A stretch of 60,970 nucleotides of DNA from an uncultured Gammaproteobacteria bacterium. Lineage in GTDB: Bacteria; Pseudomonadota; Gammaproteobacteria; GCA-001735895. The DNA is taken from the NCBI GenBank assembly GCA_964196115.1, contig CAXMRQ010000036.1, positions 1 to 60,970 of the forward strand. The letters run 5' to 3'. Each line of letters opens with the position of its first letter. Within the stretch, counting starts at the first letter, position 1. The notes beneath the pieces were generated by a model, which was not told where the DNA came from, ran no database searches, and was given only the letters and a program-made list of their open reading frames with translations. This document shows positions 43,875 through 45,882 of this stretch, piece after piece. A program made the position numbers and the translations under genes.

Positions 43875-44149
43875 ACCAGGGGCAGGAAAACAAAGACAGC
43901 TTGGAGTTCTGGGGACATATTACTTAATTAATGATACCTCCGAATGACTCCTCTTGGCCGAGGCTGTGTGAAAACTATTTGCCAAATAATTTTGTGGTGA
44001 ATGTAATCCTAATACTGTCCAATATAGACTTCAAAGTGGGTAATTAACACTAAAGCCGGTATGATTTTTTATAACTTGTGGGGAATTTTTTTAGTCAGTC
44101 CTATTTTTTCGAGTTTTCACACATAGATGGTCGCCCCCGTTTTGCCAAG

Positions 44150-44345
44150 CACTCATTTCATTAATTGCAAGTCAGTAGGTTGCAGCCATAGATCCGGACT
44201 TTGAATGAGGCATACAACCTCTGTCCCTGATGGAATTAGCTAGCGGGTGCCTTTACAGCCTGTCGAGCTTTTCGCTCCCTGTGTGAAATAGGTTTGGCCC
44301 GCTACGGTCTGACCTGTCTTGCCATCAATTCATGCTCGCCTGAGC
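44150..44345 (-). ncRNA. Putative bridge/seek RNA in the IS right-end non-coding region
   Basis: Two stem-bounded internal loops; one carries 10-nt and 7-nt matches to both strands of the insertion target. Confidence 0.7.
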
Positions 44346-44363
44346 AAACCTTGAAACCTTAAT

Positions 44364-45392
44364 TTATGCTGCCAGTTTGTACTCCCCATCGTAATCGCGT
44401 TTGTGTGCCAGCAACGCCCAGGCGATACGAGCGTTCTTGTTCGCCCTGGCCACTGATACAACGTTCATGTGTCGCCGAGTACTCAGTTCATTCGTCCAAT
44501 TATCTGTTGGTGTTTGCTTGTTAGCAGCAACTCGAACGACAGATCTAGCACCATGAACCATCAGCGTTCTCAGATACGCATCACCTCGCTTGCTGATGCC
44601 GAGCAGCAGTGGCTTCCCACCACTTGAGTGTTGCCTTGGTACTAACCCCAACCAGGCAGCGAGTTCTCGTCCGTTCTTGAAGCAGCTGGCATTACCAATC
44701 GACGCCACCAGTGCAGTTGCTGTTAACACGCCAACACCCGGTATATTGGCAAGTCTCTGACTGTCTTCATTGTTTTTATGCCAGGCATCGATTTGATCCT
44801 CTAATGCCTGGATCTGGTGATTGAGCTCCAATAGATGGGATCGAAGGCGAAGCAGTAACTCTCGGAATACGACGGGTAACTCATTCTCTGCGTCCTCAAT
44901 GATATCGGCTAGGCGTCGTGCAACATGCACAATGCCTTGTGGCAAAACAATGCCAAATTCACCCAGCAGGCCCCTTATCTGGTTTGCCTGCGCTGTTCTC
45001 GACTTCACAAAACCTGACCTGGCACGATGTAGCGACAACACGGCATGTTGCTCAACGGATTTGATGGGTACAAATCGCATGGTTGGCCGAGTGACAGCCT
45101 CGCAGATGGCTTCAGCATCCGCCGCATCCGTTTTATTGGCTTTCACGTAAGGCTTGACGAACTGGGGTGCCATTAGCTTTACCTCATGGCCTTGTTCACG
45201 CAGCTTCCTGGCCCAGTAATGGGCACTGCTGCAAGCCTCCATACCGATCAAGCAGGGTGGTAGTTGGACAAAAAACGCCAATACCCTGGATCGTTTCAAT
45301 CGTTTTTGAACCACCGTCTTGCCACGCTTATCGACGCCGTGCACCTGAAAAACAGATTTAGCCAAATCGACACCTATTGTCGTAATATTCAT
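44364..45392 (-). CDS. IS110 family DEDD recombinase/transposase (intact)
   Basis: GVDLAK, GMEAC, KTDAADA (DEDD) and GLVPRQHSSGGK (catalytic Ser). Confidence 0.96.
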   Translation of the reverse strand: MNITTIGVDLAKSVFQVHGVDKRGKTVVQKRLKRSRVLAFFVQLPPCLIGMEACSSAHYWARKLREQGHEVKLMAPQFVKPYVKANKTDAADAEAICEAVTRPTMRFVPIKSVEQHAVLSLHRARSGFVKSRTAQANQIRGLLGEFGIVLPQGIVHVARRLADIIEDAENELPVVFRELLLRLRSHLLELNHQIQALEDQIDAWHKNNEDSQRLANIPGVGVLTATALVASIGNASCFKNGRELAAWLGLVPRQHSSGGKPLLLGISKRGDAYLRTLMVHGARSVVRVAANKQTPTDNWTNELSTRRHMNVVSVARANKNARIAWALLAHKRDYDGEYKLAA

Positions 45393-45882
45393 TTCGGTTG
45401 CCTCTTCTTGTTTAGTGGAATATGCAATCCCACTATGGCACCTGGATGCCGATTAAAGAAGGGGCGACCATTCCATTAGCCTCGGCCGAAGATTGCCGCC
45501 CACCTTAGATTTTTCAGCGTCTCCTTTGGAGAAAACAGGCACTCAAATTCCTGTAACCAGGGTCTCAAAACGACACGACAGACACTGTCCATTATTAACC
45601 AGGTAAGCCATCAATAAGATTAAGCTTTAAGCTAGAACCGTACGAGAAATCCTGGGGACACTTAACTTAATTCTGAAATTCTGAGGACCCAATCAGATTA
45701 TGAATACTGTCATTAATCGCTTGTTCGCAACGTCTACAACCGCATCATTTAATGTCAATTCCGGTGCTCCGCTTTCGCAAGATACTTAGGTAAAGTTTTT
45801 GTAAACAATCGATTTCAATCGCCACTTTTAATTTATTTTGCAGTAGAGTTAGTTATCACAACCGGAACAAGAGGAAAGGACC

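What the first reader, a model, noticed from the sequence alone, without database searches (positions are those of the whole stretch)
44124..45478. IS1111 element whose non-coding end carries readable guides for its own insertion site (bridge/seek RNA)
Seen: the rebuilt target is AGTTTTCACACA|GCCTC. On the transposase strand, a stem TAGCGGG/CCCGCTA (44298-44304 / 44241-44247) encloses TTTCACACAG (44279-44288, identical to the left target across the junction), an inner GAGC/GCTC hairpin, and AGGCTGT (44255-44261, reverse complement of ACAGCCT). A second stem (44177-44220) holds ATCTAT, matching the circle junction; its other donor guide is weak. Established: IS110/IS1111 recombinases use such bipartite RNAs. 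Inference: an intact, naturally programmed recombinase with a new target specificity, namely a MITE/IS terminal repeat.
Basis: partly seen in the sequence, partly recalled or inferred. Interest (0 to 1): 0.85.

Follow-up and report, generated by a model that had tools for sequence, protein, structure and literature searches.

The report
RNA-guided IS1111 element in IS1182 end
This is an intact jumping gene of the IS1111 type that carries its own guide RNA, and the guide segments spell out the site it sits in, which is the terminal repeat of another mobile element; it is a clean new example of a mechanism described in 2024, not a new kind of system.

Summary
Window 44124-45478 is a 1355-bp IS1111-family element on the minus strand. 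It has a 342-aa DEDD transposase, perfect 11-bp subterminal repeats and 7-nt/3-nt terminal extensions. Its 240-nt 3' non-coding region contains UUUCACACAG, which pairs with the target top strand from -1 to +9. AGGCUGU, which pairs with the bottom strand from -4 to +3, begins 27 nt after it. Both sit in an internal loop closed by TAGCGGG/CCCGCTA.

This is not chance: 0 of 3000 shuffles reach the observed score. Across 49 relatives with other targets the guides change with the target. IS4321, used as a positive control, shows the same geometry.

AUCUAU matches the right end plus the first left-end base. The same segment tracks six different right-end variants in 27 of 27 relatives.

The target is the conserved terminal repeat of IS1182-family elements and their ~177-bp MITEs. 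Close relatives occupy the same position and orientation at many independent sites.

IS1111/IS110 elements that target the repeats of other transposons are already known (IS4321/IS5075, IS1383). Verdict: new member of a known kind, modest interest.

The parts
44124..45478 (-). Whole IS1111-family insertion sequence, 1355 bp
   Evidence: The boundaries follow from the uninterrupted target copy at 43956-43976 and from the family's 7-nt/3-nt extension rule. Relatives that are 85-90% identical have the same ends.
45472..45478 (-). Left terminal extension, TAATGGA (7 nt)
   Evidence: Read from the sequence. The length matches the IS1111 rule quoted in PMC11187229.
45461..45471 (-). Left subterminal inverted repeat, ATGGTCGCCCC
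   Evidence: pair I7: 11 of 11 bases complementary to 44127-44137.
44364..45392 (-). Transposase gene, 342 aa, DEDD/RuvC-like domain plus C-terminal serine domain; GLVPRQHSSG motif
   Evidence: ORF listed. Pfam PF01548 and PF02371. NCBIfam NF033542 'IS110 family RNA-guided transposase', 370 bits against a cut-off of 140. Distant match to the ISCro4 and IS621 structures.
44344..44349 (-). 5' strand of long-range stem P1 (GUUUGC); pairs with 44178-44183
   Evidence: Consensus fold of 31 relatives (helix 1, 93.5% paired).
44322..44327 (-). UGAUGG, invariant in all 31 relatives; predicted to pair with CCAUCA at 44228-44233 (P2)
   Evidence: helix 2: 98.9% paired, no variation, so neither supported nor refuted by covariation.
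44298..44304 (-). 5' strand of the stem that closes the target-binding loop (UAGCGGG)
   Evidence: helix 4, all 8 pairs show compensatory changes.
44279..44288 (-). Target guide T, UUUCACACAG; complementary to the target top strand C|TGTGTGAAA (-1 to +9)
   Evidence: (D18). The equivalent segment tracks the target in relatives.
44265..44277 (-). Apical hairpin GAGC-GAAAA-GCUC between the two target guides
   Evidence: helix 7: 3 of 4 pairs compensatory.
44255..44261 (-). Target guide B, AGGCUGU; identical to the target top strand AGGC|TGT (-4 to +3), so it pairs with the bottom strand
   Evidence: It starts 27 nt after guide T, as in relatives and in IS4321.
44241..44247 (-). 3' strand of the stem that closes the target-binding loop (CCCGCUA)
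44228..44236 (-). Candidate left-end donor guide AUUCCAUCA; complementary to 8 of 9 bases of left-end positions 1-9 (TAATGGAAT)
   Evidence: (I14). This is ambiguous: the CCAUCA part is invariant and can also pair inside the RNA with UGAUGG.
44196..44226 (-). Conserved two-tier hairpin (P5 GGAC/GUCC, P6 GAGG/CCUC) between the two donor segments
   Evidence: helices 8 and 9, 6 pairs compensatory.
44188..44193 (-). Right-end donor guide AUCUAU; identical to the last 5 nt of the right end (ATCTA) plus the first base of the left end, which is the circle junction
   Evidence: with the alignment: the same segment matches in 27 of 27 relatives across six right-end variants (CTA, GTA, ACA, ATA, AGA, GCA).
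44178..44183 (-). 3' strand of long-range stem P1 (GCAACC)
44143..44148 (-). -35 box TTGGCA of the promoter completed at the circle junction. A 17-nt spacer follows, then TATAAT built from the right-end TA (44125-44124) and the left-end TAAT (45478-45475).
   Evidence: in-silico junction. TTGGCA is conserved in relatives.
44127..44137 (-). Right subterminal inverted repeat, GGGGCGACCAT
   Evidence: pair I7.
44124..44126 (-). Right terminal extension, CTA (3 nt)
43956..44123 (.). Main part of the ~177-bp MITE that hosts the IS. The intact terminal repeat is at 43956-43976. The inner 12 nt of the split repeat are at 44112-44123.
   Evidence: (I5, I11). Word depth is 450-1000 here against 15-30 in the unique flanks.
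45479..45487 (.). Outer 9 nt (GCCTCGGCC) of the split MITE terminal repeat
   Evidence: (I11).

Best explanation
The stretch is an intact IS1111-family insertion sequence with its own bridge/seek RNA. It has inserted 9 nt inside the terminal inverted repeat of an IS1182-derived MITE.

**Shown directly by sequence and comparison**
- The transposase gene is complete, with a DEDD domain and the serine motif.
- The subterminal repeats are perfect and the terminal extensions are 7 nt and 3 nt.
- No target bases are duplicated.
- Relatives insert at a fixed position and in a fixed orientation.
- The 3' non-coding region has a fold supported by covariation.
- Two loop segments read the target on both strands and overlap at the crossover point (C|TGT).
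- One segment reads the right end plus the first base of the left end.
- All of these segments change with their DNA partners in relatives.

**Inferred from the family (Siddiquee 2024, Durrant 2024)**
1. The element excises as a circle.
2. Joining the ends creates a TTGGCA-17-TATAAT promoter, which transcribes the transposase gene and the downstream non-coding region.
3. The RNA is trimmed and binds the transposase.
4. Its target loop pairs with GAGGC|TGTGTGAAA in an IS1182-type terminal repeat, while its donor segments hold the circle junction.
5. The recombinase exchanges strands between C and T of AGGC|TGTG without duplicating the target.

The target is a multicopy sequence that carries no host function. 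Insertion there splits that repeat.
For: **Family identity.** Pfam PF01548 and PF02371. NF033542, 370 bits against a cut-off of 140. 11 of 11 subterminal repeat.

**Ends.** The 7/3 extensions and the lack of duplication follow from the intact site at 43956-43976.

**Guides are not chance.** Score 17 against 9.1 +/- 1.1 in shuffles; 0 of 3000 reach it.

**Guides covary with targets.** In 49 relatives with distinct targets, the matched non-coding region and target score 13.8. Mismatched pairs score 9.2 +/- 1.3. 27 of 49 rank first. The first guide starts about 26-27 nt before the second in most relatives.

**Natural retargeting.** L023 is 68% identical in protein. It sits in the repeat variant TGTGTAAAAAC and carries the guide TTTTTACAC.

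**Fold.** 94.8% of cells are paired, against 28-41% in the slid controls. 23 pairs are compensatory, including all 8 pairs of the target-loop stem.

**Right-end guide.** It matches in 27 of 27 relatives over six end variants.

**Positive control.** IS4321 in a Tn21-type repeat has guides at -1..+9 and -4..+3, starting 27 nt apart.

**Same site used repeatedly.** 85-90% identical relatives all lie in ...AGGC|TGTGTGAAAAC, with at least 10 different outer flanks and in either end of the MITE.

**Junction promoter.** Shown in silico.
Against: There is no direct evidence that this copy moves or that its RNA is made and bound.
- The metatranscriptome contigs that cover the non-coding region carry no strand information, and some run on into the flank. 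At an 80% identity threshold the transposase gene is covered too in 2 of 4 runs.
- No circle junction or excised allele of this locus was seen in contigs.
- The second donor guide is ambiguous. Its invariant CCAUCA can pair inside the RNA, and it mismatches left-end position 2.
- Siddiquee et al. found that an 82-nt RNA is enough for ISEc11. By size it probably lacks the donor module. Donor reading by RNA is therefore not settled for this group.
Confidence: 0.9

Rival explanations
1. The guide-like matches are coincidence or a fossil of captured target DNA in the non-coding region, and target choice is made by the protein alone.
For: The individual matches are short (10 and 7 nt). No Rfam family covers the region.
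Against: 0 of 3000 shuffles reach the observed score. The same two positions in the fold carry different sequences that match different targets in dozens of relatives. They also do so in IS4321. The enclosing stem shows compensatory changes at all 8 pairs.
Confidence: 0.02
2. The system is real, but this particular copy is a resting or dead copy. It looks intact but is not expressed in the integrated state, or it is disabled by substitutions that sequence alone does not reveal.
For: Only one other record, L001, encodes the identical protein, and it is the same locus in another assembly. The integrated left junction lacks the TATAAT box that only the circle junction forms. No excision or circle product was seen.
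Against: The ORF is full length and all residues invariant among relatives are kept. Both subterminal repeats are perfect. The non-coding region is about 97% identical to copies that are demonstrably multicopy. Word depth over the IS is roughly 2-8 times that of the unique flanks in the source-type metagenomes.
Confidence: 0.2
3. Only the target loop acts as a guide. The ends are recognised by the protein through the subterminal repeats, and the AUCUAU and AUUCCAUCA segments are scaffold.
For: An 82-nt RNA supports ISEc11 movement. The authors suggest that end recognition may differ from IS110. CCAUCA is invariant and pairs with an invariant UGAUGG in the consensus fold (helix 2).
Against: The AU-x-x-A-(U/C) segment follows the 3-nt right-end extension through six variants, and it follows the first left-end base in 25 of 27 relatives. 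A pure scaffold would not do that. Durrant et al. report donor-complementary loops in the IS1111 members they inspected by hand.
Confidence: 0.2

Closest known systems
IS4321 / IS5075 (IS1111 family; Partridge & Hall 2003, cited in PMC11208160 and PMC11187229)
   Same: The family features are the same. Insertion is at one fixed position and in one orientation inside the terminal inverted repeat of another transposon. The guide geometry, tested here on an IS4321 copy, is identical: a 10-nt top-strand guide at -1..+9 and a 7-nt bottom-strand guide at -4..+3, starting 27 nt apart.
   Different: The transposases are only 45% identical. The target here is the repeat of IS1182-family elements and MITEs, not the 38-bp repeat of Tn21-type transposons. 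The orientation relative to the repeat tip is opposite. The host is an uncultured marine-sediment bacterium.
ISEc11, ISPa11, ISKpn4, ISPst6 (IS1111-family elements with experimentally shown seekRNA; Siddiquee et al. 2024, PMC11187229)
   Same: The guide RNA is downstream of the transposase gene. The top-strand match lies 5' of the bottom-strand match, and the two overlap at the insertion point. The subterminal repeats, the 7/3 extensions and the transposase size class are shared.
   Different: Their targets are a linear site, REP elements and attC sites. No RNA or transposition data exist for the element here.
IS621 / ISCro4 bridge recombinases (IS110 group; Durrant 2024, Hiraizumi 2024; PDB 8WT6, 9T56)
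   Same: They use a DEDD recombinase plus one RNA with a target module and a donor module. Each module reads both DNA strands around a shared crossover point.
   Different: Their RNA lies upstream of the gene and the guide order is reversed. They have no long subterminal repeats. The protein similarity is distant and significant only in the C-terminal domain (E 1e-8 to 1e-9).
IS1383 of Pseudomonas putida H (Muller, Lauf & Herrmann 2001, listed in the references of PMC11208160)
   Same: It is an IS110-family element whose specific target is the inverted repeats of another insertion sequence (IS1384).
   Different: Only the title could be checked. Its sequence, subgroup and guide were not examined here.

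Membership tests
IS1111 family (within IS110 sensu ISfinder) | DEDD/RuvC-like N-terminal domain plus the PF02371 C-terminal domain | tested here: met
   PF01548 E 3.5e-17 and PF02371 E 1.4e-24. NF033542, 370 bits against a cut-off of 140.
IS1111 family (within IS110 sensu ISfinder) | GL-P----S(T)G motif and a transposase of 330-350 aa | tested here: met
   GLVPRQHSSG at residues 249-258. The protein is 342 aa. These residues are invariant in the alignment. The criterion comes from PMC11187229.
IS1111 family (within IS110 sensu ISfinder) | Subterminal inverted repeats of 11-13 bp with a 7-nt left and a 3-nt right extension | tested here: met
   ATGGTCGCCCC / GGGGCGACCAT, 11 of 11 (I7). The extensions TAATGGA and CTA are fixed by the intact target copy. 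The criterion is quoted.
IS1111 family (within IS110 sensu ISfinder) | The long non-coding region lies downstream of the transposase gene | tested here: met
   240 nt downstream (44124-44363) against 86 nt upstream (45393-45478).
IS1111 family (within IS110 sensu ISfinder) | Site- and orientation-specific insertion without target duplication | tested here: met
   The flanks rejoin exactly to the intact repeat. All copies in L001-L021 lie in ...AGGC|TGTGTGAAAAC in the same orientation.
IS1111 family (within IS110 sensu ISfinder) | Circular intermediate with abutted ends that forms a promoter | tested here: inconclusive
   In silico the junction gives TTGGCA-17 nt-TATAAT. No circle-junction contig was seen, and contigs would not be expected to show one.
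seekRNA / bridge RNA of the IS1111 group | A top-strand-complementary segment 5' of a bottom-strand-complementary segment, overlapping at the insertion point | tested here: met
   UUUCACACAG (-1..+9), then AGGCUGU (-4..+3), with the overlap C|TGT. The criterion is quoted.
seekRNA / bridge RNA of the IS1111 group | The guides lie in the internal loop of a conserved stem-loop | tested here: met
   Consensus fold of 31 relatives: 94.8% paired, 23 compensatory pairs, slid controls 28-41%.
seekRNA / bridge RNA of the IS1111 group | The guides change with the target in relatives (natural reprogramming) | tested here: met
   Matched pairs score 13.8 and mismatched pairs 9.2 +/- 1.3; 27 of 49 rank first. 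L023 shows a guide and repeat co-change.
seekRNA / bridge RNA of the IS1111 group | Donor-binding segments complementary to the element's own ends | tested here: inconclusive
   The right-end segment is met in 27 of 27 relatives over six variants. The left-end segment matches 8 of 9 bases but is largely invariant and can pair inside the RNA.
seekRNA / bridge RNA of the IS1111 group | [quoted passage not shown] | not testable with these tools
   Only unstranded metatranscriptome contigs over the non-coding region are available, partly from relatives.
MITE derived from an IS1182-family element (the target) | A short, ORF-less, multicopy element whose terminal repeats equal those of an autonomous IS | tested here: met
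   A 21-bp repeat pair flanks about 135 bp. Of the 80 loci listed with the intact 20-mer, 34 have MITE-size pairs (median 177 bp), and 7 of 8 IS-size pairs encode IS1182 transposases. L178 scores 438 bits on NF033551 against a cut-off of 270.
MITE derived from an IS1182-family element (the target) | Target-site duplication flanking the element | tested here: inconclusive
   No clear direct repeat was found. The flanks outside the repeats are themselves loosely palindromic.

The most novel reading that the evidence does not exclude
Two readings go beyond a routine family member.

1. This IS1111 lineage may be a long-standing hyperparasite of IS1182-family ends. Its guide follows variants of that terminal repeat across Gamma- and Betaproteobacteria: TGTGTGAAAAC pairs with UUUCACACAG, and TGTGTAAAAAC pairs with UUUUUACAC. 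It would be using a repeat that stays constant across IS1182 transposases only 55-60% identical as a portable safe harbour.

2. In the IS1111 group the right end would be read by RNA, not only by protein. A short unpaired segment follows the 3-nt terminal extension through six variants.

In the TAATGG/CAATGG clade both donor segments specify G at position +2. The left end has A there, and nearly all targets have G. This hints at a product-reading or 'handshake' step that has not been described for this group.
Probability: 0.3. Interest if true: 0.45.

Novelty: new member of a known kind. Interest (0 to 1): 0.28.

Why it matters
The element adds a well-annotated, apparently intact natural bridge/seek-RNA recombinase from an uncultured marine-sediment bacterium. 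All four guide segments, the fold and the target are mapped. It comes with a set of about 50 relatives whose guides and targets covary, which could be used to define the guide rules and scaffold of this IS1111 clade. It also shows one mobile element specialising on the conserved end of another family (IS1182 elements and their MITEs). That limits damage to the host and may disable the targeted element. None of this changes the current picture of the mechanism.

Tried and rejected
**Rfam search.** A search at E<=1 over 43500-46000 found nothing. No family for these RNAs reached the threshold.

**Own-genome search.** Other copies in the window's own genome could therefore not be counted. Exact-protein look-up found only the same locus in another assembly.

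It is the single-sequence minimum-energy fold. I rejected it as the functional fold because relatives do not keep it: 56.8% paired, which 315 of 500 shuffles reach.

**RNA evidence.** At 90% identity, metatranscriptome contigs covered almost only the non-coding region. That looked like a stable small RNA. At 80% the transposase gene is covered too in 2 of 4 runs. The pattern is therefore partly an effect of the non-coding region being more conserved than the gene. I treat it as weak evidence only.

**Circle junction or empty allele.** I looked for these in four DNA metagenomes. I found only intact repeats of other MITE copies, not excision at this locus.

**The chance explanation.** Rejected by shuffles and by cross-target controls.

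**Literature.** A search for IS1111 elements that target IS1182 ends found nothing relevant.
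Full report
**1. What is there**

Window 44124-45478 is a 1355-bp insertion sequence read on the minus strand. In transposase orientation it contains, in order:
- TAATGGA, a 7-nt extension;
- ATGGTCGCCCC, the left subterminal repeat;
- a 342-aa ORF at 45392-44364;
- a 240-nt non-coding region;
- GGGGCGACCAT, the right subterminal repeat, 11 of 11 complementary to the left one (I7);
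- CTA, a 3-nt extension.

The protein carries Pfam PF01548 and PF02371. It scores 370 bits on NCBIfam NF033542, 'IS110 family RNA-guided transposase', against a cut-off of 140. It has the GLVPRQHSSG motif. Its only solved relatives are the ISCro4 and IS621 recombinases, at a distance.

Transposase size, repeat length, the 7/3 extensions and the downstream position of the long non-coding region are the features Siddiquee et al. use to define the IS1111 family (PMC11187229).

**2. The target**

Joining the flanks gives GGCCGAGGC|TGTGTGAAAACT in transposase orientation. The same 21-mer is present uninterrupted at 43956-43976 in inverted orientation. The IS therefore sits 9 nt inside one terminal repeat of a ~177-bp element, and no bases are duplicated.

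**3. The guides**

On the transposase strand, the stem UAGCGGG/CCCGCUA (44298-44304 / 44241-44247) encloses three parts:
- UUUCACACAG (44279-44288);
- a GAGC-GAAAA-GCUC hairpin;
- AGGCUGU (44255-44261).

The first segment is complementary to the top strand from -1 to +9. The second is identical to the top strand from -4 to +3, so it pairs with the bottom strand. They overlap on C|TGT.

A top-strand match 5' of a bottom-strand match, overlapping at the insertion point, is the published layout of IS1111-type seekRNAs.

The combined score is 17. In 3000 dinucleotide-preserving shuffles of the non-coding region the mean is 9.1, the sd 1.1 and the maximum 15.

**4. Relatives**

Exact-protein look-ups of two 90-92% identical transposases returned 20 loci from metagenomes. 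All lie in ...AGGC|TGTGTGAAAAC in the same orientation. They have at least ten different outer flanks and occupy either end of the MITE.

In these relatives the non-coding region is about 97% identical, while the element as a whole is 85-90% identical.

A scan of reference genomes gave 80 loci with transposases 50-72% identical. I located the ends of 57 of them and of the copies above through the subterminal repeat and the 7/3 rule. In most of them a 7-13-nt segment complementary to the right flank is followed, about 26 nt later (start to start), by a 6-10-nt segment identical to the junction. Both sit at the same place in the fold, but the sequences differ.

Scoring every non-coding region against every target (49 distinct targets) gives:
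- matched pairs, mean 13.8;
- mismatched pairs, mean 9.2 +/- 1.3;
- 27 of 49 elements prefer their own target over all others.

L023 comes from a betaproteobacterial MAG and is 68% identical in protein. It sits in a variant of the same repeat (TGTGTAAAAAC) and carries UUUUUACAC. This is a natural co-change of guide and target.

As a positive control I used an IS4321 copy in a Tn21-type repeat on a Pantoea plasmid (45% identity). It shows AAAACGGAAA at -1..+9 and TATTTTC at -4..+3, starting 27 nt apart. That is the same geometry as here.

**5. Fold**

I aligned 31 non-coding regions. The consensus structure is 94.8% paired, against 28-41% in slid controls. It has 23 pairs with compensatory changes, including all eight pairs of the target-loop stem. 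It contains:
- a long-range stem, GUUUGC 44344-44349 with GCAACC 44178-44183;
- an invariant UGAUGG/CCAUCA pair of strands;
- the target stem-loop;
- a two-tier hairpin at 44196-44226.

Relatives do not keep it: 56.8% of cells are paired, which 315 of 500 shuffles reach.

**6. Donor side**

AUCUAU (44188-44193) lies unpaired between the hairpin and the long-range stem. It equals the last five bases of the right end plus the first base of the left end, which is the circle junction.

In relatives the same segment reads AUGUA, AUACA, AUAUA, AUAGA, AUGCA or ACACA, exactly as the right end does. It matches in 27 of 27 once four mis-anchored rows are read from the alignment. The next base follows the first left-end base in 25 of 27.

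The other donor segment is probably AUUCCAUCA (44228-44236), complementary to 8 of 9 bases of TAATGGAAT. Its third base covaries weakly with left-end position 7. The CCAUCA part, however, never varies and can pair with UGAUGG inside the RNA, so its role is open.

Durrant et al. predicted bridge RNAs in the right end of 93% of IS1111 elements. [quoted passage not shown] Siddiquee et al. found an 82-nt RNA sufficient for ISEc11.

**7. Junction promoter**

Joining the ends in silico gives TTGGCA, 17 nt, then TATAAT. The -10 box is assembled from TA of the right end and TAAT of the left end. The family is known to form such a promoter on the circular intermediate. The integrated copy lacks the box.

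**8. What the target is**

Of the 80 listed:
- 34 have inverted pairs 136-190 bp apart (median 177 bp);
- 8 have pairs 1.6-2.1 kb apart.

Seven of those eight encode IS1182-family transposases that are only 55-60% identical to each other. L178 scores 438 bits on NF033551 against a cut-off of 270. In L012 and L014 the IS1111-type element abuts a remnant of such a transposase gene.

The target is therefore the conserved terminal repeat of a clade of IS1182-family elements and their MITEs.

In the marine-sediment metagenomes that hold the window sequence, word depth is:
- 15-30 in the unique flanks;
- roughly 50-130 over the IS;
- 450-1000 over the MITE.

Depth sums all organisms in the sample, so it shows only that both elements are repeated.

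**9. Expression**

Four sediment metatranscriptomes hold contigs over the non-coding region. With the identity threshold lowered to 80%, two of them also cover the transposase gene. Some contigs run into the flank, and contigs carry no strand information. This is weak support for transcription of this IS lineage. It says nothing about RNA processing.

**10. Comparison and verdict**

The element works like the IS1111-family elements with demonstrated seekRNAs, and by every testable criterion it is a member of that family.

Targeting the terminal repeat of another transposon is also known. IS4321/IS5075 target Tn21-type repeats, and IS1383 targets the IS1384 repeats (reference lists of PMC11208160).

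What is new is the particular element, at most 68-72% protein identity to anything in the reference genomes and plasmids searched. Its particular target is also new. A literature search for IS1111 elements that target IS1182 ends found nothing relevant.

It is a new member of a known kind. Interest is modest and lies mainly in the clean set of covarying relatives.

Noticed in passing
L006 (relative, non-coding region after the transposase gene): One 90% identical relative has an 88-nt deletion that removes the whole target-binding stem-loop but keeps the donor segment and the ends. It is either a guide-less copy or an assembly artefact.
   Followed up: no
window 44186-44193 and 44228-44236; relatives L022-L100: In the clade whose left end starts TAATGG or CAATGG, both donor segments specify G at position +2 (AUCUA-U-G-G, and CCAU-C-A). 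The left end has A there. The right flank of the target has G at +2 in 17 of 19 relatives. Clades with left end TGATGG, AGATGG or GAATGA match all three bases.
   Followed up: partly
window 45510-45550; L001 about 4450-4500: A hairpin-containing repeat (GTCTCCTTTGGAGAAA...CTCAAAT) lies just outside the MITE. It has raised depth (127-240 against 15-30). It is also found beside other MITE copies, so the MITE or IS1182 element may itself prefer this repeat. The sequences immediately outside the MITE repeats are loosely palindromic.
   Followed up: partly
L001 (GCA_964196495.1, contig of 6277 bp) against window 43900-44123: This is the same locus and the same IS at 99.8% identity. Beyond the IS, however, the MITE is in the opposite internal orientation and the far flank differs. 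It is either an assembly chimera across IS copies or a real rearrangement between copies.
   Followed up: partly
window 43909-43929 and 45652-45672: A direct repeat, CTGGGGACATATTACTTAATT / CTGGGGACACTTAACTTAATT (86% identical), brackets the whole MITE-plus-IS region at unequal distances. Its depth is not raised.
   Followed up: no
L103-L182 (metagenome loci): The 20-nt terminal repeat GGCCGAGGCTGTGTGAAAAC is kept exactly by IS1182-family elements whose transposases are only 55-60% identical. This is unusually strong conservation of an IS end.
   Followed up: partly
L013 1-1168: In one relative's locus, a second and different IS110-family transposase gene (418 aa) lies directly beside the IS1111-type element.
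   Followed up: no
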